From Psilocybe cubensis (taxonomy: Eukaryota): DNA of 64,000 nucleotides. The stretch covers positions 4,340,001-4,404,000 of the forward strand of contig CM038998.1 in assembly GCA_017499595.2 (NCBI GenBank). The letters are read 5' to 3'. Below are positions 1,944 through 61,266 of the stretch, piece by piece. The translations under genes and the position numbers were made by a program. Numbering within the stretch: the stretch's first letter is position 1; every line of letters starts with the position of its first letter. The notes under the pieces are model-generated. The model had not been told where the DNA came from. It worked only from the letters and a program-made list of their open reading frames with translations, and did not search any database.

Positions 1944-4331
1944 CACGGCGGGCAAAAGTGCTGACTAGTCAGCCCGGGTGTTGGTCTGACCAGTTACGTG
2001 ACGGGTTCGTGACGGGTTCCGTGACGAATCAATTGACCAATCCATTGCACGTCGGGATTTTCCGAATGTAAAACTAACTTGTACGGAAGACTCGTATCTT
2101 GCACAGATAGTCCAAGTAACTCCAATTAGAAATTTCTCTTACATTTTGAATAAAAGATGAACTTTAAAGTTGTCTTATACATTAAGTACCAGATCAAGGT
2201 GTCAGAATGAACTCCAGTTTGAGTGTAAATCAAACTGTAAGAGAACTGGAAGAAAAAATACGAGAAGTTTTTCCAGTTAAACTGGAAGACACGCTGCAAG
2301 GTTATTAGTCAGATGATGTAGCGTAATTACCTACCCGATTTAGCTGGAAATCAGTCTTATATTTTGATTTTGGCCCTGATATTAACATATAACACGTCGG
2401 GATATTCAGAATATGAAGTTTCCACGAAGTGGGTAATCGAACATTACAAAATATTTGAAATATAATAAGGTTTTAAATGATGCAACACACTTTAAATACA
2501 AAAGAAATACATATGTTAACTAAGATTGTAGTTACATGGCAACATCCAAATCTTTAAAGAATGTTGTGATAAATTTTATACATAAAGTACATTTCAAGAA
2601 TGACTTGTATATTAAATCTGAATCATCCTCTTTGAGACCAAGATATTTTATATCAAAGTTGTCCTTGAAAGGAACTTTGTATTTTAAATCCATTGTAACT
2701 TTTGAATGCCTCGTGAATGTCGAAAAAAATTTAAAGTACAAAGGTCCTTTGTGGGCTCACTTAGACATAGCATGTTTTGCACCATCTGTTGTTCATAGAC
2801 ATTTGAAATACAATACTCCCTTACATGCTGCCACATATATTGAGTTTGTTACTACTTACAAAGGTCCTTTATATTTTAAATATACAGGAACCTAATATCA
2901 GTACTTTGTATGTTATAACATATCTCAAATATGTTGTTCCAATATATTCTGCGCCCGCTCATTGCCCATTGAGTGCCCAACAGTCGCCCACTATAACAGC
3001 CACTGCGTGCCCACCTACATCTGGCATTGAACACCATTTTGCAGGCATCAATTCTATAAACATGTTCAATGCCCGCAAAAGAGATCTAGGTGGGCACGCA
3101 GTGGCTGTTATAGTGGGCGACTGTTGGGCACTCAATGGGCAATGAGCGGGCGCAGAATATATTGGAACAACATATTTGAGATATGTTATAACATACAAAG
3201 TACTGATATTAGGTTCCTGTATATTTAAAATATAAAGGACCTTTGTAAGTAGTAACAAACTCAATATATGTGGCAGCATGTAAGGGAGTATTGTATTTCA
3301 AATGTCTATGAACAACAGATGGTGCAAAACATGCTATGTCTAAGTGAGCCCACAAAGGACCTTTGTACTTTAAATTTTTTTCGACATTCATGAGGCATTC
3401 AAAAGTTACAATGGATTTAAAATACAAAGTTCCTTTCAAGGACAACTTTGATATAAAATATCTTGGTCTCAAAGAGGATGATTCAGATTTAATATACAAG
3501 TCATTCTTGAAATGTACTTTATGTATAAAATTTATCACAACATTCTTTAAAGATTTGGATGTTGCCATGTAACTACAATCTTAGTTAACATATGTATTTC
3601 TTTTGTATTTAAAGTGTGTTGCATCATTTAAAACCTTATTATATTTCAAATATTTTGTAACGTTCGATTACCCACTTCGTGGGAACTTCATATTCTGAAT
3701 ATCCCGACGTGTTATATGTTAATATCAGGGCCAAAATCAAAATATAAGACTGATTTCCAGCTAAATCGGGTAGGTAATTACGCTACATCATCTGACTAAT
3801 AACCTTGCAGCGTGTCTTCCAGTTTAACTGGAAAAACTTCTCGTATTTTTTCTTCCAGTTCTCTTACAGTTTGATTTACACTCAAACTGGAGTTCATTCT
3901 GACACCTTGATCTGGTACTTAATGTATAAGACAACTTTAAAGTTCATCTTTTATTCAAAATGTAAGAGAAATTTCTACTTGGAGTTCTACTTGGACTATC
4001 TGTGCAAGATACGAGTCTTCCGTACAAGTTAGTTTTACATTCGGAAAATCCCGACGTGTTGACTAGTCAGAAGAGGTCACAAAGATGTTGTCACGCTGAA
4101 CGATTTATTTCGCGCAGTTACCATTCAATCTTATTTCGATAAACTCATTTACCAATACTAACCAGAACCCATTCACCAATAAGTACTAACTAGTGTGACA
4201 ACGTCTGTGTGACATATTCTGACTGGTCAATGGACTGGTCAGTTGATTCGTCACGGAACCCGTCACGAACCCGTCATGTAACTGGTCAGACCAACACCAG
4301 GGCTGACTAGTCAGCACTTTTGCCCGCCGTG
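1944..4331. mobile_element. Non-autonomous TIR element (CAC...GTG termini, CMC/CACTA-like), ~370 bp host MITE interrupted by a nested insertion
   Basis: Left end CACGGCGGGCAAAAGTGCTGACTAGTCAGCCC at 1944, reverse complement ending at 4331; 3-bp TSD TAG at 1941-1943 and 4332-4334; left TIR resumes at 4062 after the insert. Confidence 0.9.
2048..4058. mobile_element. Fold-back (long-TIR) non-autonomous element nested in the 1944-4331 MITE
   Basis: Arms ~2048-3017 and ~3087-4058 are near-perfect reverse complements; termini CACGTCGGGATTTT / AAAATCCCGACGTG; 3-bp TSD TTG at 2045-2047 and 4059-4061; mirrored ORFs in the track. Confidence 0.93.
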
Positions 4332-4515
4332 TAGCTATGGCAGGCGCGTCTTTCTCTCCGATCTCGCAAACATAGACAAGAGCCTCAACGCGCATGGCGC
4401 AATTACTGCAGAGAAACACTGCGCGCTTTATTGGCGAAAGTGTCACAATATGATGTCGGATACAAGTGGAATTAAAGTTACATTTAATATTATACAGATT
4501 GTTGCATCTCATAAG

Positions 4516-7500
4516 TTAAACAATTCCCAACTTCTTTGCCTCCTCCCATTCTTTAGGATACATCTTCTGTGCTGCAGCCGGAAACAAGCTCAGTCTGGCA
4601 TATCCGCTACGTATTAAAGGATCCTCTATGGCCATGAGGGCTTGAACCTTGCTGTTCGGAGCAACGTGAACCTTGACCAAGGATGGGTTGTCAAACTGAG
4701 GCAAGGGAACGACAGGCTTCTCCAGTTTGGTTGTGAGAACGTAGGGAATAGTGTAGCGGTCGTTATCAATCTTGAGCGTATTTACTCGATGAGTGGTGGC
4801 AACGAGCTTCCCACCAGTAAGGCGCATAAATTGCATTCCTTGAAGAATTTGATCAGCACAAGATTGAAACACCAAAAACTTCCATACATACCAACGTTGC
4901 ACACAACGCCTCCTTCGACCATCGGTATATCAATCCATTGACCACTATGATTTTGAACCTGAAGACCCGGCCTTGATTGTATCAAGCACGTCAGGAACGT
5001 GGAAGGATCGCGATGCTCGTGCATTCCGTTGACAAAGCCCTCGCGTTCCGAAGCTTTCATCTCCGGCGTGAGGGGTAGATAGTGCCAAAGAGCGGCATTA
5101 AATTCATGTGGGGAAGGGAAATAGTCGTCAATGACAGAGTAGGGTACTTCCAATAAGGCAGCAATGTGCTTGTTTAGATCCACATTTAGAACACGATAGC
5201 GCTCGAAGAGGGCTTCAAGTTTCGCACGGAAGCCAGGAAGATCAGCGTCCTTGGGCCATTGATTTGGACCTGAATATATTTTTAGTGACTGACTAAACTA
5301 AACTTCGGTTTTGAAAAACACATACCCTCGTGAATGCGGAGCCAGAAAGGCACATCTGGACTGTCGTGTGCTGGTCGCTCAGCGCCGAAGCGATAGGCCT
5401 CAGCATAAGCCTGGAACACAATATGAGAAGTATGAAAAATGAACGAGTGATATCGAATACAACCTTATGAGGTCCCTCAATCTTATCACATCGGAAATGT
5501 CCGCGCAGAGAGGGAGAATTATCAGTAGCAAGAGAGGCCTTCCATTCTTCTGGTTGTTGGAAGAATTGCGCAGCGAGCTGGAGAACTTCGTCCTGGAAGC
5601 TCTGCTCGAATCCTGGTACGTTAACAAAAATGCCAAATCCTACATCCTCCAGGGCAAACTTCAGTTGCTTGAAGTAGTCCGTAGGATTTGATCTGGAGAG
5701 GGAAAAATCAATGATTGGAACAGAGTCAAAATTCTGTCGGGAAGGTAGTGCAGGAGCGGGAGGAGGAAGTTGCAGAAGCTCGGCACGATGAAGAGCGTCC
5801 CTCATCTTAGCGGCGAAGGACTCGACATGGATTTCTGAAATCATAGTATAGTGCTCGCCATCGACGTCAATCATCTCGAAGTTTTTGCCAGAGTAATCTT
5901 TCCATTTGGAAAGTCGATCACGCTTATATTCCTCTCTTGTTCCCATCGAGGGAAGAGGAATGGCGCAAAACACGGTGGTCAAGGCACTCTCGACACAACC
6001 GGAAGGTACATACGTTCGTCCTGCGTCAATATAAGAAAGTATCAAAAAATTCAGCGAGTAATCACCCACCCGTGAAGGAAACATCATATGCGACATTGAC
6101 CCAGCGATGGAAGTACTCGATGGGCATGTTGAGCTCTGCCAACCTTTCCTGGTTGCAGTGCGCAAAGGTCCACTCAATCAGTTGCCTTGAGTTGGCAGGT
6201 TCCAAGTCTGAGTCACCACCAGGATTCTGAAGAAGAAGAGCAGTTTTGAAGTGCTCGAAGTCTTCTGACCGGATGAGGGCCAGGAACATTGAGAGATTAA
6301 GGCTAATGAAAACAGTTAGTCGACTGTCATATCGTATAAGGATTGTAACAACTTACAGTGTTTCAACCCAAACCAATTCCTTTACTCGGAACTGAATAAA
6401 AGGCGGTAGGTTCATCACACCGAGCCATGGTACAACCTTGCCCCTCTTCTCCAAAAGCTTGCCTATTTCAAACGCGATACCTGCACCGAAGCTATATCCT
6501 GCAAGGTAGTACGGGCCTGAGGGATTGTTTTTGACGATGGCATCAGCGTATATGTCGACCATCTCTTGCATAGACGACGGAGGTGTCTCCCCGGCTTCGA
6601 ATCCCCTTGCACGCAAGGCATAGACTGGTCGATCATCGTTGAGGATACGAGCCAGATTTATGAAGATGAGAACTTCCCCGACACCAGGGTGAACAAGGTA
6701 AATGGGTGGCTTTGAGCCCTGAGGGTTCAGGCAAAGAAGAGGGTTGTACGGGGCTTGATGATCATTGCCTTGGTTAACCAATTGCTGAACGTAGGTAGAA
6801 ATCTCAGAGACGATAGGACGTTGTAGGAGTTCGATAGTAGGAATATTAACGATACCAAAATGGTCCTGTAGGAACGTCTTGAGACGTATGAGATGCATGG
6901 AAGAAGCGCCCATATCAAAGATATTTTGGGACAGATTGACAGTTTCCAGTTCGACCTCAAAGACAATCGAAACGCCTTCGCAAACAACCTTTTCCAACTC
7001 AGATTGAGGAGCAGATGATGCGGCACGTGCTTCCTGTCGTCTAGCTGAAGCTTCACCGATACGCTTTTCGATGACGGCAAATTTGTTGTCACCGTACGCC
7101 TTGGCTAGCGTGATACGAGATACCTTGCCCAAAGCAGTCTTGAAGAAGAAGTTTCGAGGGAGAGGTAGAATGACATGTGGAGCTTGAGAACAGAATGCAG
7201 CGCATAGATTTCGAATGCGTTGATTGGTATCAAGAACAGACTCAAGTTGTTCGTCTGTCAACGAGGTGATAGTGTCTTCCTCGATAGAAACGCCGTTATG
7301 TTGGTAGAAGATTGTATACGTCTCGGTATCCGCTCCCGGTAGCCTAAGAGCGCATGCGAAGATACACGAAATTTCCACGTTGTCGATATTTGAGTCGGCG
7401 ATGTAGTGTTCGATGTCCACGCATGGGTGTTTAACTCCGTTGACGTTGATAACATCCTTGTGTCGGCCGAGCATGTGAACGTTCCCATCATCGTCGATGA

Positions 7501-8947
7501 GTGCCAAATCTCCAGTGATAAACCATCCATCCGATGTGAACGATTCATTAGTAGCCGTTGGATTGGAGTAGTACTGCGTGAAAATAGCAGGCCCGGACAT
7601 CTGAAGTTGGCCAACCACTCCCTGAGGACAGGGAAGCGATGTAACCGGGTCCATAACCCGAACGTTGCCGCCGACATGAGAGGTTCCGATGGAAAGATAT
7701 GTTGCGCCTTTGTAGTCAGCAACGTTCTTCAAAATCGGAAGGTTGTTGTAGATAATACCGGCCTGCGATGACTGTCAGTATTGTTTCAAAGGAAATAAAT
7801 ATAGAAGAAACGTACGCCAGTTTCAGTCATCCCAAACGCGGCCCTCAGAGTTGTTCGAGGGGCACCGAAGCGTTCAATGATATCGCTGAATTCGACAGCG
7901 GTGGTAACAGGATTGGCCTCTCCTCCAGTTACCATAACCCTGAGCGCTGATAGGTCTGGGCCTGGCTGCCCAGCTGACTCTATAGAGGCAGCACTAAGAG
8001 TAGCATCGCGGCAGATTTGGGCTAACAGAAAGTTTGGACTGAAAGTGTGAGTGACGTGGTACCTGGAACACCAGTCAAGAAGGTTTCTTGGCTTGCGAAT
8101 GATCGCGGAAGGGTTGACTTGATATTGACTATGAATTGATACGTTAGTCATATCATATAAAACCATCTACAAGATATCGCTTACGATGCGCCCGCCCAGA
8201 TGGCGTGCAGGTGGGCTTCCGTGACATTGGCGACATGGTCGAAATTAATCCAGTTGAGGAAGATGTCGCTGTCCTTGGTACCGTGTTTCAAGGCCTTCCC
8301 TCTGATGGCAGCCAGAACCATAGAATGTGGTAGCATCACACCCTTGGAGTTCCCAGTGGATCCAGATGTAAGCATAAGTGCAACTATCTCGTTGGCTGAT
8401 GAAGTGCGGGTAGGATATATCTGGGCGTCGAGAGACGCGTCGAAGGATGTCATATTTAGAATAAGCTCGACGTCAATGGTACGAGACTCCGGAACCAGCC
8501 TCTGGACAACTTCGAGAGCGGCAGCATCAGAGATAAAGGTGGGACTTCCGAAGAGATTCTGGAGATGATTGAGAAGGAGGGATTGACGACTTTCATCAGG
8601 GTGGAATGGAGGCAGAGGGCAGTATGGGATGCCAGCTGCAGTCGTGTATACTCCTTAAGTTGGGACTAGAGCAGACAAAGACAGGACTTACCGAAAGCGC
8701 ATCCCCAGAACACGAGGATGTGCAACCGTTGGTCGTCGAACTTGGAAACGACGATGTCTTTACCACCGCCTCGAAGGCCTGAAGAAAGTAGTGCCCTCGC
8801 AATGCGCTGGGCAGAGTCAACGAGTTGTTGAAAGGTGTAGGAGCATGTAACATCTCCAGATTCGCCAAGAAAATTAATGGTACTGGAGGATGTTTTGGCG
8901 CGGAGAGCGAGAAGCTCAGTAATAGTTGTGGGCCCTGTTGATTCCAT
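4516..8947 (-). CDS. NRPS-like quinone synthetase-type enzyme A-T-TE with fused C-terminal 2OG-Fe(II) dioxygenase (PpaA1-like architecture), multi-exon
   Basis: A domain: LMLTSGSTGNSKG, LNWINFDHVANVTEAH, GMTETG, GWFITGDL, TALGKVSR. T domain: FDMGASSMHL. TE: VHPGVGE, GYSFG, GEHYTM. Dioxygenase: VPIIDFS..GFG, HEHRD, GLQV, TTHRV, DRYT. TE and DIOX_N lie in one uninterrupted ORF (5293-6177 track). Confidence 0.9.
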
Positions 8948-9737
8948 GTTTGGAGCTGCAAAAGCAGAGTCGCGGTCTGAGGTTCATTCTTTTAAAACGC
9001 GAGGGCTTTAAATGATTCATCAAACGGATCGGTTACTTTTCTTTGATGACGACCAGAAAATCTTATCTGGCAGTGATGAGTGAAAGCTGAGCGGACCCTG
9101 TACGCCCTGGCCAGCCGCCCTGATGTCCCAAAATACATGTGGGCGAGATGGAAAAGGATGGGAAGTCGTAAAAAAGTCTTGAGAGTACCGTACGCGCGAT
9201 TTGCGACCTAATTCAAATCAACATCAAACACCATCTCAAACACGGAAACAGCTGGAAACGGTTCACAGTTACCCAATTTGTAGACGTTTTGCAAGCAAAT
9301 TTATGTGCACGATCGTATTGATGGGTTCGGCTGGGGGGACGGCAGTCGGTAATCCGATTTGGCCGCGCTTAAGCTGCATCAAATGTTACATTGGTGCATT
9401 GCCTACAACATCCGCATATTTTTCCCAAGGACCCTCACCATGATCGATTGTGTCGCCAGATAGGCTCAGTTGAGTCGGGCCCGACACAGCTTGGGAACGT
9501 GCTGACTTATTTGCTCAACACAAGCGCTGACAGAGAGGGCGCCCGAATGCAAGTATACGTTGTGCCTGGGTTTTCCAAGTACACGATATTGATTTTATCA
9601 CCTCAATTCGGATATGAATATTGCGGATATGCAGCGAGTCGTAGGTGCAATGACCAGCCTTTGATGTTAGTTTAGTAATTCCCTATTGAAATTGCACCCT
9701 TGATATCAAAAAATTCTTTTGATTTCCACCCACCACA
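8948..9737. promoter_or_regulatory. Divergent (putative bidirectional) intergenic promoter region between synthetase and O-methyltransferase
   Basis: Head-to-head starts ~790 bp apart; no specific binding site established. Confidence 0.4.
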
Positions 9738-11419
9738 ATGTCTCCCATCGACCTCGTAAACGATCTTCAGAAACTTGTTGTTTCCACGTTTTCCGGCGAG
9801 GTTACCGACCCGTTCGAAGTGTACAAGGCAAAGCACAAAATCTCCGATCTTTGTCTTGCACTTTTGCGATCTGTCCAAGGCCCTGAAGAGTATACGGCCA
9901 TCTTAGCTGGTACGATAGCACAGAGCATCACAACTGATAGGCGCTGATTGTTGCCAACAATGATTCTGTATAGAATCATGTCAAGAGTCCTCCGCTTTGA
10001 ACGTTATCACGTCTCTGAACGTAGCAGACCACATCGCTGAATCTCCAAATGGTCAGCTGAGCTTGACAGAACTCAGTAAGAAAGTCAAGGCAGATGAGCA
10101 ATACCTTAGTGAGTATCTATAACTGCTTTCAGTATGTTTCTCATGGCGTTCTCATTCGACAGGTGTTATGTTGAGCTCGCTTGCGTATCACGGCTATTTC
10201 GTTGAAGTTGGGGGCTTCGGCTCTCAGGTGTACGCCAATAACGAATTCAGCAACATTCTCCTTTCAGAAACCACACACGCCAAAGATGGAAAAAGCATGA
10301 AGGATGCAGTCGGCCTGGCGTAAGCATGCAGCTTAATATAACCTTCCTACTAAGGTTGTTGAGAATCCTGAAGTGCAGACGATGGAGCGAAGTCCACCAC
10401 TCGTCTATTGGAAGCTGCCACAGGGAAAGGAAAGGAAAGCTCAAAAACAGCAGCCAACATTGCGTTCGGTTTCGATGGCAGCGTATTCCAGTGGATGTCC
10501 TCTCCAGGGAATGAATGGCGAGGAAAGAGGACTGCAAAGGCAATGGTCCAACTTCACGGAATGGCTAATGGAGAGATAGGCGAAGGTATGTCCGTAACTT
10601 TTTGCTTTGCGTACTGGTTGTAACGGTAGGGTGTAGATTATTCCTGGGAGAAGCTCGCGACGCCAATTATCGATATTGGAGGGGGCATCGGATCCTTTGA
10701 AGGAGTAGTGCTTTCTGCTCCCAAAAACAGAGACTTGACCTTCAAGATTTTTGATATCGAAAAGACAGTGGAACACGCGAAGAAAGTAAGTGTTTCGGGT
10801 ATTTTTCTGCGATTTTCTGAACACTAGTTCCCGAATGTCAGGTATGGAGCGGAAAGCCACAGTGGATGCAGGAACGTGTGTCGTTTATCGCAGGCGATTT
10901 CATGCAGTCCTCTCCCGCCGACAGTAAGATCCCCACCCCCGCTGAAGGCGCAGGCACCTACGTGATCCGTCATGTCCTGCACGATTGGAACGATGACCAG
11001 GTATGTGATTCTCCTTGCTCCGCGTGAGGGGACACAGTTTACAACATACACACATCCACAGGTCGTCACCATCCTTACACACGTTCGGAACGCTATGCTC
11101 GGATCACCGCCGCCAACCACGTCGACCCCACCGCCTAGACTTCTCCTCGTCGAGATGATGCTAACTGAGACCTCGTCGCGTTTCACGAGAACGACTTCAT
11201 TACAGCTGCTTTCCTTGAGCGGCGGCGTGACACGCACAGAAGGTATGTCTGTCCTTTCCACATTCACTGCAACAAGATGCTGATCGCCCCGCTCGTGTCT
11301 CGCGCCTTTCCCCAGTCCAATTCCGCAAGCTTATCGCTCAAGCAGGGTTCATTGTCGAGAATGTCACCGCAGTCAGGGGCGTAGATCTGATTGTTGAATT
11401 GAAGCCGACGCCACTTTAA
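9738..11419 (+). CDS. SAM-dependent O-methyltransferase (Methyltransf_2 / COMT-like fungal family), multi-exon
   Basis: YPWEKLATPIIDIGGGIGS (motif I), KIFDIEKTVEHA, IAGDFM, YVIRHVLHDWNDD, LLLVEM; last exon ...DLIVELKPTPL*, TAA at 11417-11419. Confidence 0.9.
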
Positions 11420-13672: not shown

Positions 13673-14677
13673 TCATGCACCAGGTTGCTTGCGCACATTT
13701 CCGGAGAAATCTAATGGGCCAAATTGCCATGCAGCACTGTGTTTCCTTGAGAACCACCACCGAGCTGCCCATCGGGCGGGTGCTGGGAGAGGAGGGAACC
13801 TAGACTCGCCCTTAGAATGGGAGTGCGCATCAGAGACTATAATACATACCAAGGGGTAGCAGGGTTCATGCACACGATGGTCATGGGAAGAGTGGTGTGG
13901 AAGTCAATGTCAGCAAAGACAATCTTCTGGAAGTCTTTGTCGATCGCTTTGAGTTCCTGCTCTGTGAAAGCAGCTTTGATTTTACTGCTCTCCAGTGTCG
14001 GCAGTTCCTATATTTAAGTATGTTATTTTAGATTGGCGTTTTGACAGAAGAAAAAAAGTTACTGACGTGAACCAAGTGCTCGTACATAAGGTCCCCAAAC
14101 GAGTTGATCTTCTCGAGGAAAACATTTGCGTCGTACTGCTCCTTGCCGGCCTGGACGTCCCTGCACCACTGCGCAGTCGCGTCAAGTTGAGGAACAAACG
14201 ACGCGTGCTCATCCACGTTCGATGATAGTGAGCCGGCACCGAGCTTTTTTTCAAGAGTTGGGAAATAAAATGTCTCTTCCACGTTATGATGGTGATGAAT
14301 GGTATCCAGCTAAGAATAAAGAGAAGAAAGTTAACATGATAGCAACGGACATTAAATGATCTGAACCCGCGGCGTACCACTGTTAGACAAAACACCATGA
14401 AAGGTTGCACCTTCTCAGGTGTGATATGTGGGGCATGCGCAACAGCAGCATTGATGCCTTGGATAAAGACGTTATGGGCAGCTGCCATATTGCTAATTAT
14501 CCGTGGGTGAGTTCTCAGAGTGTATTCATGGAAAGAACTTCCACCTACATGGCCTGGTAATCGAACATGTTCGAAAACTTGCCAGGTGGCATATCTGATA
14601 TTCGAAAAGGTTATGAGCAGTGAATACCCTTTGAAAGCAACAACGTATGTACCTTGGAGAGGGTATGGGGCGGGCAT
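13673..14677 (-). CDS. Hemerythrin-like (HHE cation-binding domain) protein, multi-exon
   Basis: MAAAHNVFIQGIN, IHHHHNVEETFYFP, NVDEHASF, HLVHE motifs typical of fungal hemerythrin-like proteins; ends ...GNVRKQPGA*. Confidence 0.8.
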
Positions 14678-21468: not shown

Positions 21469-22898
21469 ATGGACTACAAACCCCAATCGCCCTACAAACG
21501 AACCAAGGGCGCCGCTGCCACGGTTCCACCCCTTGTTCGCAGTGGTTCTGCCAATCTGTTGGAGCGTTCCACGTTCAGTGGCACTACTTGGAAGCCCAAG
21601 CGGCTTGAACTCGACAGCGAGTCGCTGACAATCATCAATGTAAGTTCTCTTGTTCGCCATAGTTCGCTTTGGCTCCACAGTTGTCTCACTCGCGTCGTTG
21701 CAGCCCTCGTCAAACAAGCGCACTCGCATCAGTCTGCAAGACATCACCGAGCTCGAGCGAACAGACCTGGCAGACCATGCACTCGAACTAAAGACAAAGA
21801 TCAAGCGGTACAACTTCTCATTCACCACCGACTCGGAATTGTATGACTGGCAGGACGATATCTACCAGCGGTGTCCTCTAGGCAACTACAGCGCACCCTT
21901 CGATTTTGTGCACAAGTCGCATATAGGATCGGATTCGGTGGCGGGTACATTCACGGTGCGTTCAATTCATAGGCATTCTCACTCCTGTGTTCTCACATTC
22001 AAGGCGGCTTCTTTTCCCATAGGACGCGAACATTCTCCCCATCTATGCAGAGATCATTGGCGGACAGCCGGCTGTTTCCAAAACCTCTCCATCCATCGTC
22101 GCCTCGCCCCGCTCACGGCCTGCATCTGCTTCTCCACTCGCCGCTGTGCCAAAGGGCAGCTCATCGCCATCACACCCGGTCCTGGATGGACTTTTTGCGA
22201 TCAAACAAACAGGCCTCTTCGCGGGTTGGCTGTGGAAAGAACGATGGCTGACACTCACGCCACAGGCTCTTGTCATTCATCGGCGAAGTACCAAGGTGAA
22301 CTAGTCTCTTCTTTGCTCTACTTCTCCACCTTCAGATCCCCACTCGGGGGACCCAAATCTATTCTTATTCGTATCTCTTATCGACCTTCTTTACTGACAT
22401 CCTGTTTTTCATTTGCCCTGCTCCGCCAGTCCTCGCCGGCATCGAAGAGTATTCCACTACCCGCTCTCACCCGAATCGACATCGACGTGAAACGGGACAA
22501 TTGCCTCATTGTCGAGTTCACCACCCGCCCAAGCTCCTCCACATCCTCAGGGTCCGTGCCGACCGATATACTAGCGATTGTGTTTAAGGGCAATACGAAT
22601 TTATACGAATGGCGCGACGCGCTGTACCTCCGCAGCGCGCTCTCCTCGCCGATCGGAAACCCGACCAGTTTCGTCCATCATGTGCACGTAGGGTTTGACC
22701 CTGTAACGGGTGCCTTTACCGTAAGTCCAATAAATCAGTGAATTTGGTGCAAACTTGTAGAATCTCAATTTTGTGTGTGCTTGACAGGGTCTTCCGGCTG
22801 AATGGAACTGCGTTAATCCAGGACCGTCGCCTTCCTCTGAGAAGAAGGCGCGCCGCCAGTCAAGGCGTAGATCTGCGCCCCTGGTGGCCTCTAATTGA
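21469..22898 (+). CDS. Tandem PH-CRIB-PH-CRIB protein (Cla4 N-terminus-like), no kinase domain
   Basis: PH motifs WKPKRLEL...ELYDWQDDIY and WKERWLTL...LYEWRDALY; CRIB YSAPFDFVHKSHIG and [29 protein letters not shown]; stop TGA at 22896-22898. Confidence 0.85.
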
Positions 22899-59799: not shown

Positions 59800-60810
59800 G
59801 ACTTTCGAGTAGATATGTGGCTTTCAACATATCGCAGATCATTATCTATTGTGGTCCGCGGTCTACTATTTTTAATCATTTATATGCTAGTTTTGTCATG
59901 TGTTGGGTCTGTTTTTTTTTGGTGGCGGCATTTGTTACAGAGAGCAGCTCGGGCGTAAGGGGACGCATGGTGAACTGGCCTTCACATTTACTGTTCTAGC
60001 ACTGAAGAGATCATTAGGTGGATTCCAAAGAACCTTCTATCAGCATCTACCCCTACCGCTTCGCAGCACTTAATGTCTTTTACTTTTTCCGCGTCCAGTG
60101 TCAGATGGCTCAGCATAGGAAGTCACATTACAAAAACGAGCCAAAATCCTGGAGCGGGGTCTTGCCTTACAAGATCCGTTAACGAACCATTTGACTGGAC
60201 GCAAATCGATAACAGGTGCTTTTTCAAAACTGTGAAGTTCTTTTGGAAATTCCGGTCTATTTTTGGCACTAACGCCCACACATTGCGGAGTTTTAAAACG
60301 ACTTGTGGCTCATAATCGAAAGTTTTTTGATTATGTTTTCTAAACAAAAAGATCCACAAATACAGGTTGACATCAGGTTGAAATCACTTTCAAAAATTTC
60401 ATGAGCAAAATTGTACATTGGCTGTTTGCGCTTCGCCATGCTCCAAGTCTCCCAACAGGTACACACTGCAAAACGCCGGAAATCGCCCATGTGCTTCCAT
60501 GTGTGTGAATCCTCAAACGATTGTGTCTATGGTTTCAAGTGACTCATACCACCCTATTGACTGTTCTAATCTTGTAATCTTCAGAGATGACCGTTTTAAG
60601 AGCGTAAAATACAGAGCCTGCTCTCTGGGTACTGATCCTTATCTTATTGTGTACGAGGGTAATGTGTTGGGGTATAAAACTTCGATAATGCATCTGTACT
60701 TCAACTCAAGCTTCCTCCTTACTCGCCAGAACTTGAACGCTGAAGGAGTAACCCTCTGGTGCCTTTCCCACACCCTTATACAGAGAACTCTCGCCGAAAG
60801 CTTGTATACC

Positions 60811-61266
60811 ATGGAAACATATCATAAACTCATTATATCGACTTACCATCGCGGATGGGACGATGCGGGTAACACCAAGCCGTACCACTGGGCTTTGTTC
60901 GTACACGCTCCTAGCTATGATAACAACCAGTATAGAGCCAACTCTGGAATTGTTCATCAAATTACAGGGTATCCTGGTGCATACGAATATCCAGGACCAC
61001 ACACGATTTCCGACTTACATGGGTCGGGATCAAGGATGCAAGACCTTTACATCGGAGAGATTGGGAACACCAAGCTAGATCGCATCACAGAGATATGTCG
61101 ATCTGTGCCAATTCCTGATGCCACTAAAGATTCTACAAAGCAGTTTTGGAATTGCCAGAGCTGGACTGCAGCAGTCGTACGGGAGTTGAACAAAGAGGGG
61201 TTTATATATTCACAAATCGGCGATACAGATGCATATTTGTGGGGACATCTTGCAGAAACTCGATAA
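60811..61266 (+). CDS. Small hypothetical protein, DUF6540-like (HW...H...NCQxW)
   Basis: YHWALFV, IVHQITG, WNCQSW motifs; ATG at 60811; intronless. Confidence 0.6.
   Translation: METYHKLIISTYHRGWDDAGNTKPYHWALFVHAPSYDNNQYRANSGIVHQITGYPGAYEYPGPHTISDLHGSGSRMQDLYIGEIGNTKLDRITEICRSVPIPDATKDSTKQFWNCQSWTAAVVRELNKEGFIYSQIGDTDAYLWGHLAETR

What the first reader, a model, noticed from the sequence alone, without database searches (positions are those of the whole stretch)
4516..8947. Four-domain NRPS-like enzyme: quinone synthetase (A-T-TE) fused to a 2OG-Fe(II) dioxygenase with intact iron ligands
Seen: the TE end (GEHYTM) runs without stop or intron into a DIOX_N start (NFDSVPIIDFS). Later exons supply HxD (HRD), the distal His (TTHRV) and an R-x-T (DRYT) where RxS is usual. 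Known: the FDHVA motif (Val in place of the amino-acid-binding Asp) marks aryl alpha-keto-acid-dimerising synthetases such as atromentin/polyporic acid synthetases, which are normally just A-T-TE. From memory, Psilocybe cubensis PpaA1 has this rare extra dioxygenase domain, reported as inactive. Inference: here the facial triad looks complete, so the domain may hydroxylate or cleave the quinone, or act only with a partner such as the adjacent OMT.
Basis: partly seen in the sequence, partly recalled or inferred. Interest (0 to 1): 0.8.

Follow-up and report, generated by a model that had tools for sequence, protein, structure and literature searches.

The report
Psilocybe polyporic acid synthetase gene ppaA1
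This is the already published magic-mushroom gene ppaA1, a pigment-precursor synthetase with an extra dioxygenase domain, and that domain proves to be widespread and unusually well conserved among mushroom-forming fungi.

Summary
On the minus strand, 8947-4516, lie nine exons and eight GT..AG introns: 4432 bp encoding 1333 aa. The protein is identical at 1333 of 1333 residues to an NCBI Psilocybe cubensis protein. Its length, intron number and residue numbers match those published for PpaA1 (PMC10316625). So the gene is ppaA1 itself, not a relative with a "better" triad. Intron-less contigs of two public runs confirm all eight introns and read from the TE into the dioxygenase part in one piece. 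The paper had already noted the intact HxD...H motif. Triad mutants and a D-domain deletion still made polyporic acid in Aspergillus.
- 27 proteins of other species have the same four-domain build.
- D is the best-conserved part, and its iron and 2OG ligands never vary.
- Free-standing orthologues exist.
- Three-domain enzymes are scattered among four-domain ones in the tree.
- Phlebiopsis gigantea gene models also run into a D domain.
D is probably an active enzyme whose substrate is unknown. The finding is already known and of modest interest.

The parts
4516..8947 (-). ppaA1 gene, ATG to stop (4432 bp). Exons: 8947-8692, 8635-8185, 8128-7816, 7762-6357, 6302-6070, 6020-5464, 5410-5326, 5269-4892, 4838-4516.
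   Evidence: The model built is identical to P0001, a P. cubensis protein. All eight introns are supported by intron-less contigs. Size, intron number and protein length equal those printed for ppaA1.
7568..8848 (-). Adenylation domain core, aa 34-405, spanning introns 1-3. V220 is code position 1 (in FDHVA) and V302 is code position 5.
   Evidence: Pfam AMP-binding, E 9e-43. Residues read. The paper states that Val at position 1 marks alpha-keto-acid activation and describes a V302N mutant.
6788..6979 (-). Thiolation (carrier) domain, aa 602-665. The phosphopantetheine-bearing Ser628 is encoded at 6901-6899.
   Evidence: Pfam PP-binding, 21.6 bits against a cut-off of 20.8, and ACP_SdgA_C. 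S628 is invariant in 28 of 28 four-domain proteins. The paper's S628A mutant made no product.
5800..6706 (-). Thioesterase (Claisen/Dieckmann cyclase) domain, aa 693 to about 960, spanning introns 4 and 5. It holds the GYSFG and GEHYTM motifs.
   Evidence: Pfam Thioesterase, E 2.5e-24. Three-domain relatives (CorA, HapA and others) end at the equivalent of aa 963-967.
5722..5799 (-). TE-D linker, aa 961-986, rich in Pro and Ala. It is the least conserved stretch of the protein.
   Evidence: Mean pairwise identity 0.40 and 1 of 26 columns invariant. It lies inside exon 6 and is transcribed in one piece with TE and D.
4519..5721 (-). Fe(II)/2-oxoglutarate dioxygenase (D) domain, aa 987-1333, spanning introns 6-8. 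H1186 is at 5015-5013, D1188 at 5009-5007, H1243 at 4791-4789, R1254 at 4758-4756 and T1256 at 4752-4750.
   Evidence: Pfam DIOX_N and 2OG-FeII_Oxy. AlphaFold model with pLDDT 91.5 and pTM 0.90. Best fold matches are T7H, an ancestral ethylene-forming enzyme and TropC. Ligand columns are invariant.
8948..9737 (.). 790-bp stretch between the start codons of ppaA1 and the divergently oriented OMT gene. It is a possible shared promoter region.
   Evidence: Positions. An intron-less contig reaches 9025, giving a ppaA1 5' UTR of at least 78 nt. Promoter function is inferred, not tested.
9738..11416 (+). O-methyltransferase gene (protein P0188, 422 aa), the neighbour of ppaA1.
   Evidence: Three exon pieces match Pfam Dimerisation and Methyltransf_2 in colinear order, each below its cut-off. 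P0188 is named 'O-methyltransferase gedA [Psilocybe cubensis]' and carries PF00891 and PF08100. It maps to 9738-11416.

Best explanation
The gene is Psilocybe cubensis ppaA1, a clade I NRPS-like quinone synthetase. The A domain adenylates phenylpyruvate (Val220 at code position 1, Val302 at position 5) and loads it on the phosphopantetheine arm of Ser628. The TE domain joins two units by Claisen/Dieckmann condensation and releases polyporic acid. These steps are shown in print for this very protein. After a short, poorly conserved linker the same polypeptide continues into a complete Fe(II)/2-oxoglutarate dioxygenase. Published work shows that this domain is not needed to make polyporic acid. 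My inference is that it is nevertheless a working enzyme under strong selection. It belongs to a tight Agaricomycete family that occurs both fused and free-standing, and it most likely oxidises polyporic acid or a derivative in the native fungus. That activity would be hidden in Aspergillus, because those hosts convert polyporic acid to phlebiopsins by themselves. I put identity and the A-T-TE mechanism at about 0.97, 'D is catalytically competent in nature' at about 0.6, and 'its substrate is a terphenylquinone' at about 0.35. The confidence given for the whole statement (0.6) is set by the claim that D is competent.
For: Identity:
- The model is 1333/1333 identical to P0001.
- It is 4432 bp with 8 introns and 1333 aa, and seven residue numbers equal the paper's.
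- All domains pass their Pfam cut-offs.
- Transcription as one piece and all eight introns are supported.

D under selection:
- Among the 28 four-domain proteins of at least 1200 aa, mean pairwise identity is D 0.72, TE 0.63, A core 0.57, A sub-domain plus T 0.54 and linker 0.40. Invariant columns are 29%, 23%, 12%, 12% and 4%.
- H1186, D1188 and P1189 are kept in 27 of 28 rows, the last row being a gap. H1243, R1254 and T1256 are kept in 26 of 28, the other two being gaps.
- Y1164, H1186, D1188, H1243 and R1254 are invariant in 33 of 33 close and distant homologues.
- Against the fused metagenome relative L004, dN is 0.117 in D and 0.194 in TE.
- The PpaA2 paralogue is most similar to ppaA1 in the D exons, 83-89%.
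- Seven full-length free-standing proteins are 58-65% identical to D. Unlinked free-standing genes show dN/dS of 0.16-0.35 among themselves.
- The D model is confident (pLDDT 91.5) and has an ordinary 2OG-oxygenase fold.

Long retention:
- Three-domain and four-domain enzymes are interspersed, with 7 changes of state, of which starred branches force at least 6.
- An AU test rejects the three-domain rows as one clade, p 4e-41.
- The D tree and the A-T-TE tree agree for Trametes and Cubamyces.
Against: - The published D1188A, H1243A, triple-mutant and D-deletion versions of this protein gave the same products as wild type in two Aspergillus hosts. D fused to CorA changed nothing either.
- No polyporic acid or labelled product was found in P. 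cubensis itself.
- The family carries fixed departures near the active site. Thr replaces the usual Ser (Ser in 25 of 25 distant homologues). Val or Ala replaces Phe (Phe in 25 of 25). A Pro is inserted after the Asp ligand. These could equally mark loss of the usual chemistry.
- Some free-standing orthologues lie among housekeeping genes with no synthetase within 10 kb. The family therefore need not act on terphenylquinones at all.
- Conservation shows constraint, not catalysis.
- The identity figures rest on database gene models of uneven quality.
- The trees are quick searches with SH-aLRT support only.
- The clade for the AU test was named after the tree had been seen.
Confidence: 0.6

Rival explanations
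1. The D domain is a catalytically dead appendage, kept for folding, stability, localisation or regulation of the synthetase. This is the reading the 2023 paper leans towards.
For: Triad mutants and a D deletion gave unchanged products, and D fused to CorA had no effect. The paper notes that the residues aligned with the aromatic substrate-binding residues of T7H and TropC are P1189 and V1260. The family differs from 25 of 25 distant homologues at three positions near the active site.
Against: A dead domain is not expected to keep every iron and 2OG ligand in all rows that have the region. It is not expected to be the slowest-evolving part of the protein. It is not expected to persist as a free-standing gene under purifying selection. 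P1189 and V1260 are themselves conserved: 27 of 27 rows with a residue there have Pro, and 25 of 26 have Val. That looks like a fixed, different pocket rather than decay. The paper itself shows that the synthetase stays fully active without D, so D is not needed for structural integrity.
Confidence: 0.25
2. The D domain is the missing oxygenase that starts the oxidative ring contraction of polyporic acid to diarylcyclopentenones of the phlebiopsin type. This is a specific version of the best explanation.
For: Phlebiopsins are proposed to arise from polyporic acid through an oxygenase-made epoxide, and no enzyme is named in the passages I read (PMC6100525). Aspergillus hosts make phlebiopsins from fed polyporic acid, which would mask such an activity. 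Phlebiopsis gigantea, the phlebiopsin producer, does carry D sequences. P0037 runs from the TE into DIOX_N up to the conserved intron site. P0162 is a separate first D exon. Fold neighbours include epoxidising and ring-rearranging 2OG enzymes such as H6H, TropC and SpoC.
Against: There is no direct evidence. HapA1, HapA2 and CorA are three-domain, yet the paper credits the Hapalopilus and Psilocybe species with the capacity to reach phlebiopsins. The P. gigantea models are truncated, and the rest of their D domains was not seen. Unlinked free-standing orthologues sit in housekeeping surroundings.
Confidence: 0.15
3. D works only together with the adjacent O-methyltransferase as a small gene cluster, for example on O-methylated polyporic acid.
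For: The OMT gene lies 790 bp from ppaA1 and is transcribed divergently. Polyporic acid pathways elsewhere use an OMT, AlfD (PMC12105029). P. gigantea makes O-methylated terphenyls.
Against: The OMT orthologues seen in Leucoagaricus and Lyophyllum atratum lie on contigs of different length from those of their synthetases, 2 of 2 species. No OMT was found within 10 kb of D in L002, L008 or L012. The rest of the window is housekeeping: Chs7, a carboxypeptidase, a 2-oxoacid dehydrogenase E2. The OMT search had only 14 candidates, so the test is weak.
Confidence: 0.07
4. The fusion is an annotation artefact, and two neighbouring genes have been read as one.
For: Fungal gene models often merge or split neighbours. 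Free-standing and fused forms are sister to each other within Cubamyces.
Against: TE, linker and DIOX_N share one exon with no stop between them. A 2261-nt intron-less contig spans the junction. The paper cloned and expressed the cDNA. A second organism's DNA (L004) shows the same uninterrupted junction and the same intron site.
Confidence: 0.01

Closest known systems
PpaA1, polyporic acid synthetase of Psilocybe cubensis (Seibold et al. 2023, PMC10316625)
   Same: Everything tested matches: 4432 bp, 8 introns, 1333 aa, S628, V302, H1186, D1188, P1189, H1243 and V1260 at the printed numbers. The protein is 100% identical to the NCBI P. cubensis protein.
   Different: Nothing was found to differ. 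The paper's strain is FSU12407. Public runs differ from the window by about 30 single letters over 4.7 kb, which I read as differences between strains.
PpaA2, the paralogue in P. cubensis (P0002, 1326 aa)
   Same: It has the same four domains. The paper gives 80.4% identity.
   Different: It is not in this window. It gave no product on heterologous expression.
CorA (Terana caerulea), HapA1 and HapA2 (Hapalopilus rutilans): three-domain clade I polyporic acid synthetases
   Same: The A-T-TE logic and the product are the same. CorA and the one Hapalopilus polyporic acid synthetase examined here (P0068, 964 aa) are 49-50% identical to PpaA1 over aa 6-966.
   Different: They end at the equivalent of aa 966 and have no D domain. 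In the A-T-TE tree they nest among four-domain enzymes, so they look like the derived state.
Fe(II)/2OG oxygenases of the DIOX_N plus 2OG-FeII_Oxy type with solved structures: N. crassa T7H (5c3q), ancestral ethylene-forming enzyme (9ovh), TropC (6xjj), SpoC, TraH, rice HIS1/HSL1
   Same: The fold is the same (TM about 0.66, E down to 6.5e-24). The HxD...H triad, the Arg that binds the C5 carboxylate of 2OG, and a conserved Tyr are shared.
   Different: Identity is only 18-28%. The family has Thr for Ser in RxS, Val or Ala for a Phe, and an extra Pro after the Asp ligand. A long stem branch of about 2.6 changes per site separates the family from its nearest relatives.
The alf cluster of Allantophomopsis lycopodina (AlfA with AlfC, AlfD and AlfB; PMC12105029)
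   Same: A polyporic acid synthetase is followed by tailoring steps that include an O-methyltransferase and an oxygen-dependent ring-contracting enzyme.
   Different: AlfA is a three-domain enzyme. AlfB is an extradiol ring-cleavage dioxygenase, not a 2OG enzyme, and it is a separate protein.

Membership tests
Psilocybe cubensis ppaA1 / PpaA1 | Gene of 4432 bp with eight introns encoding 1333 aa | tested here: met
   Model. Figures printed in the paper.
Psilocybe cubensis ppaA1 / PpaA1 | Sequence identity with the P. cubensis protein, and the published residue numbers | tested here: met
   1333/1333 identical to P0001. S628, H1186, D1188, P1189, H1243 and V1260 and V302 match. The paper's own accession number was not seen.
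NRPS-like aromatic alpha-keto-acid quinone synthetase (clade I, polyporic acid type) | Domain order A-T-TE | tested here: met
   Pfam AMP-binding 34-405, PP-binding 602-665, Thioesterase 693-792.
NRPS-like aromatic alpha-keto-acid quinone synthetase (clade I, polyporic acid type) | Val at specificity-code position 1 and an aliphatic residue (Val or Ile) at position 5 | tested here: met
   V220 in FDHVA and V302. The rule is stated in the paper. The placement of V220 at position 1 is mine, by motif, not by alignment to GrsA.
NRPS-like aromatic alpha-keto-acid quinone synthetase (clade I, polyporic acid type) | Phosphopantetheine-bearing Ser in the T domain | tested here: met
   S628 is invariant in 28 of 28 rows. 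The S628A mutant is inactive in print.
NRPS-like aromatic alpha-keto-acid quinone synthetase (clade I, polyporic acid type) | Product is polyporic acid | not testable with these tools
   Shown in print for the identical protein in A. niger and A. nidulans.
Fe(II)/2-oxoglutarate dioxygenase (DIOX_N + 2OG-FeII_Oxy) | Both Pfam domains above their curated cut-offs, and the double-stranded beta-helix fold | tested here: met
   55.5 bits against a cut-off of 27.3, and 49.1 against 23. Model pLDDT 91.5. T7H, EFE and TropC are the top fold matches.
Fe(II)/2-oxoglutarate dioxygenase (DIOX_N + 2OG-FeII_Oxy) | HxD...H iron-binding triad | tested here: met
   H1186, D1188 and H1243 are invariant in 33 of 33 aligned homologues.
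Fe(II)/2-oxoglutarate dioxygenase (DIOX_N + 2OG-FeII_Oxy) | RxS motif that binds the C5 carboxylate of 2OG | tested here: inconclusive
   The Arg is invariant in 33 of 33. The Ser is Thr in 8 of 8 members of the tight family and Ser in 25 of 25 distant homologues. Thr keeps a hydroxyl group, but binding was not tested.
Fe(II)/2-oxoglutarate dioxygenase (DIOX_N + 2OG-FeII_Oxy) | 2OG-dependent oxidation of a substrate | not testable with these tools
   No activity became evident in vivo in print. No in vitro assay of the domain was found in the passages I read.

The most novel reading that the evidence does not exclude
The four-domain build is the ancestral and still common state of basidiomycete clade I quinone synthetases. 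Its dioxygenase is then the long-sought enzyme that oxidatively tailors polyporic acid, for example by epoxidation and ring contraction to phlebiopsin-type cyclopentenones. On this reading the 2023 'inactive' result arose because the Aspergillus hosts perform the same conversion themselves.
Probability: 0.15. Interest if true: 0.6.

Novelty: already known. Interest (0 to 1): 0.3.

Why it matters
The gene itself is published and functionally characterised, so the finding as written adds nothing new. What remains open is what the dioxygenase domain does, which the 2023 authors also leave open.

1. The build is not unique to Psilocybe. It occurs in four orders of mushroom-forming fungi.
2. The dioxygenase is the most constrained part of the protein, and its cofactor ligands never vary.
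3. One published argument against a role in phlebiopsin formation was that the Phlebiopsis gigantea enzymes have only three domains. The database gene models contradict this. They run into a dioxygenase exon and break off at a conserved intron.

If the domain is active, it would be a rare case of a tailoring oxygenase fused to an NRPS-like synthetase. It would also be a candidate for an unassigned oxidative step in terphenylquinone metabolism.

Tried and rejected
- Whole-genome search for ppaA2 and its neighbours: no genome is held for this window.
- The look-up of sequencing runs: no RNA holder listed. Runs X1 and X2 are only guessed to be RNA. I used only what their contigs bridge.
- Earlier findings of the scan: none for this genome.
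- OMT co-location test: only 4 hits among 14 candidates, so it speaks weakly against a conserved OMT-synthetase pair.
- dN/dS of ppaA1 against other loci: synonymous sites are saturated (dS not computable), so only dN could be compared.
- Representative search with exon 4: this was meant to give an unbiased ratio of three- to four-domain enzymes. At 50% clustering only five representatives reach 47-53% identity. One of these is full length and four-domain (P0039), one is a fragment with DIOX_N (P0020), and three are fragments. No ratio can be given.
- Share of four-domain enzymes in clade I: the query spanned the TE-D junction and so favoured fused proteins. I make no claim about proportions.
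- Remnants of a synthetase upstream of the free-standing D genes: none, even at E up to 1.
- Pfam on 149 window frames outside the gene: no further secondary-metabolism genes.
- Literature follow-up on the D domain: five searches found only the 2023 paper.
- Complex prediction for TE with D: not run, because I make no binding claim.
- The phlebiarubrone / methylenedioxy-bridge idea for Punctularia rests on recall only and was dropped.


Full report
**1. What is there**

Stop-to-stop frames on the minus strand of 4516-8991 carry adenylation, carrier, thioesterase and dioxygenase motifs in order. From the sequence I set nine exons:
- 8947-8692
- 8635-8185
- 8128-7816
- 7762-6357
- 6302-6070
- 6020-5464
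- 5410-5326
- 5269-4892
- 4838-4516

The eight introns are 49-56 nt long and all are GT..AG. The CDS is 4002 nt and encodes 1333 aa with no internal stop.

**2. Identity**

A search with exon 6 returned a 1333-aa NCBI protein of Psilocybe cubensis (P0001). My spliced model equals it at 1333 of 1333 positions.

I read the abstract, many passages and the discussion of Seibold et al. 2023 (PMC10316625). I could not see its supplements. The paper gives ppaA1 as 4432 bp with eight introns and 1333 aa. It names S628, V302, H1186, D1188, P1189, H1243 and V1260, and the model has exactly these residues at these numbers. The gene is therefore ppaA1. The paralogue PpaA2 (P0002, 1326 aa) is not in the window.

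Pfam on P0001 gives AMP-binding 34-405, PP-binding 602-665, Thioesterase 693-792, DIOX_N 987-1107 and 2OG-FeII_Oxy 1180-1261.

**3. Transcript**

No run is on record as RNA. Contigs of runs X1 and X2 nevertheless lack the introns, while X3 and X5 keep them. Seven introns appear as exact joints. Intron 6, which has the unusual GTTGTA donor, is shown by an 8-letter loose end that equals the start of exon 6.

One 2261-nt contig runs from 7761 to 5463, from the A domain through T and TE into DIOX_N. Another covers 5412 to 4500, past the stop codon. A third reaches 9025, which is 78 nt upstream of the ATG. The paper also cloned and expressed the cDNA. Transcripts therefore do not end after the TE.

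**4. What is already known about the D domain**

The paper reports the conserved HxD...H motif. It mutated D1188, H1243 and all three ligands, deleted the domain, and grafted it onto CorA. In every case polyporic acid and phlebiopsins were still found in A. niger or A. nidulans. The untransformed hosts also turn fed polyporic acid into phlebiopsins. The authors call the domain catalytically inactive in the abstract, but state in the discussion that its function warrants further investigation.

**5. The build is not unique**

[quoted passage not shown] Of the 72 hits, I counted 29 by hand from the Pfam column that carry both AMP-binding and 2OG-FeII_Oxy. Of these, 27 come from species other than P. 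cubensis. They include Termitomyces, Hypsizygus, Lyophyllum, Mycena, Collybia, Agaricus, Cristinia, Gloeophyllum, Punctularia, Antrodiella, Hermanssonia, Trametes punicea and Cubamyces. Four more hits carry AMP-binding with DIOX_N only. The orders covered are Agaricales, Polyporales (recalled for Trametes and its allies), Gloeophyllales and Corticiales.

A metagenome contig (L004) shows the same uninterrupted TE-linker-DIOX_N reading frame and an intron at the same place as intron 6.

**6. Conservation**

I aligned the 28 four-domain proteins of at least 1200 aa, out of the 33 with any D part.

| Part | Mean pairwise identity | Invariant columns |
|---|---|---|
| A core | 0.57 | 12% |
| A sub-domain plus T | 0.54 | 12% |
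| TE | 0.63 | 23% |
| Linker | 0.40 | 4% |
| D (26 rows) | 0.72 | 29% |

One search gives the same order for identity to PpaA1.

- H1186, D1188 and P1189 are kept in 27 of 28 rows (one gap).
- H1243, R1254 and T1256 are kept in 26 of 28 rows (two gaps).
- V1260 is Val in 25 rows and Ile in 1.
- With 25 distant homologues added, Y1164, H1186, D1188, H1243 and R1254 are invariant in 33 of 33.
- The tight family has fixed differences from all 25 distant homologues: Thr for Ser in RxS, Val or Ala for Phe at 1260, and an extra Pro after the Asp.
- Against L004, dN is 0.117 in D and 0.194 in TE, with dS saturated.

Caveat: database gene models can be wrong, and that would lower identity more in intron-rich parts.

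**7. Free-standing relatives**

Seven full-length proteins of 348-376 aa are 58-65% identical to D over at least 97% of its length. They come from Trametes versicolor, T. polyzona, Exidia, Phanerochaete carnosa (two), Cubamyces menziesii and one metagenome. The next full-length hits drop to 34% or less.

A metagenome scan gave 17 loci. Only L004 has TE sequence upstream. Eight loci checked at E up to 1 show no synthetase remnant. L002, L008 and L012 have 10 kb on each side and are syntenic with one another. In them D sits between ATP synthase gamma and eIF5-type genes on one side, and ribosomal protein L14/L23, hexokinase and a HAD hydrolase on the other. This is effectively one lineage, not three independent cases. 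Their pairwise dN/dS is 0.16-0.35.

In the D trees the family is one clade on a long stem. Fused and free forms are mixed, with at least 4 changes of state. The unlinked metagenome genes group with the Psilocybe and Termitomyces T112 domains at 99% SH-aLRT.

**8. Which state came first**

I built a tree of the A-T-TE part from 42 rows (quick search, LG+G4, one ascomycete outgroup). It scatters the three-domain enzymes among the four-domain ones. These are CorA, HapA, T. polyzona, T. pubescens, one Antrodiella protein, Phellopilus, Gautieria and Mycena vitilis. The tree needs 7 changes of state, of which starred branches force at least 6.

Holding all three-domain rows together costs 1433 log-likelihood units, p-AU 4e-41. 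The group was named after the tree had been seen. The three-domain proteins stop at the equivalent of aa 963-967.

The D domains form one clade, and the two trees agree for Trametes and Cubamyces. One early fusion followed by several losses or splits is therefore the simpler reading. This is inference. The root is weak and the sample is biased towards fused proteins.

**9. Phlebiopsis gigantea**

The paper argues against a role of D in phlebiopsin formation because the two P. gigantea synthetases are three-domain. The NCBI model P0037 (1080 aa) is colinear with PpaA1 through TE, linker and DIOX_N. It departs exactly where P. cubensis intron 6 begins. P0162, from another contig, is a free-standing first D exon that breaks at the same place. 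In the A-T-TE tree P0037 is sister to HapA.

Whether the remaining D exons are intact could not be checked, because no P. gigantea DNA was within reach.

**10. Structure**

With a 33-row alignment, AlphaFold gives pLDDT 91.5 and pTM 0.90. Foldseek places the model with T7H (E 6.5e-24), an ancestral ethylene-forming enzyme, TropC, SpoC, TraH, HIS1/HSL1 and H6H, at 18-28% identity. A sequence search of the PDB agrees. The fold is ordinary and does not reveal the substrate.

**11. Surroundings**

The OMT gene (P0188) lies at 9738-11416 on the plus strand, divergent from ppaA1. Its orthologues in Leucoagaricus and Lyophyllum atratum are on other contigs than their synthetases. The rest of the window looks like housekeeping. 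I see no conserved cluster.

**12. Verdict**

- The feature is already known.
- The A-T-TE mechanism is shown in print.
- That D is a working enzyme in nature is my inference from conservation (about 0.6).
- That D acts on polyporic acid is a guess (about 0.35).
- The specific ring-contraction idea stands at about 0.15.

Noticed in passing
window 1944-4331: A large, near-perfect inverted repeat. Arms 2118-3022 and 3082-3986 are 905 nt long and 99% complementary, with a 59-nt spacer. They are extended by arm pairs 2048-2118/3988-4058 and 1944-2047/4228-4331. The region is AT-rich (GC 0.34 in 2001-4000). It ends 185 bp downstream of the ppaA1 stop. Its frames have no Pfam match. It may be a foldback-type element or an assembly artefact.
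   Followed up: partly
P0037 and P0162 (Phlebiopsis gigantea proteins): Both gene models break off exactly at the site of P. cubensis intron 6, after the first dioxygenase exon. They probably miss a conserved intron. This hides a D domain in a species that the literature describes as having only three-domain synthetases.
   Followed up: partly
L002:10001-11256, L008:10001-11260, L012:10001-11260: Free-standing orthologues of the D domain (55-64% identity) lie in a shared housekeeping neighbourhood: ATP synthase gamma, eIF5/eIF2B, ribosomal protein L14/L23, hexokinase and a HAD hydrolase. No synthetase or OMT lies within 10 kb.
   Followed up: yes
P0052 (Leucocoprinus birnbaumii, 541 aa): This gene model joins a protein-kinase fragment to a D domain that is 77% identical to the PpaA1 domain. 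It is probably a merged or truncated model of a four-domain gene.
   Followed up: no
window 4400-9100: Public runs of the same coded organism differ from the window by about 30 single-letter changes and one 2-base deletion near 4444. I read these as differences between strains. Several fall inside the D-domain exons.
   Followed up: no
window 14031-14309 (-), 21644-22738 (+), 35505-36766 (-), 38541-40007 (+), 42617-44002 (-), 50265-52110 (+), 60382-61263 (+): Other genes in the window by Pfam on open frames: a hemerythrin-like domain, a PAK-type P21-Rho-binding domain, the Chs7 chitin synthase export chaperone, an S10 serine carboxypeptidase, an alpha/beta hydrolase, a 2-oxoacid dehydrogenase E2 component, and a DUF6540/DUF6914 protein. 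None suggests a biosynthetic cluster.
   Followed up: no
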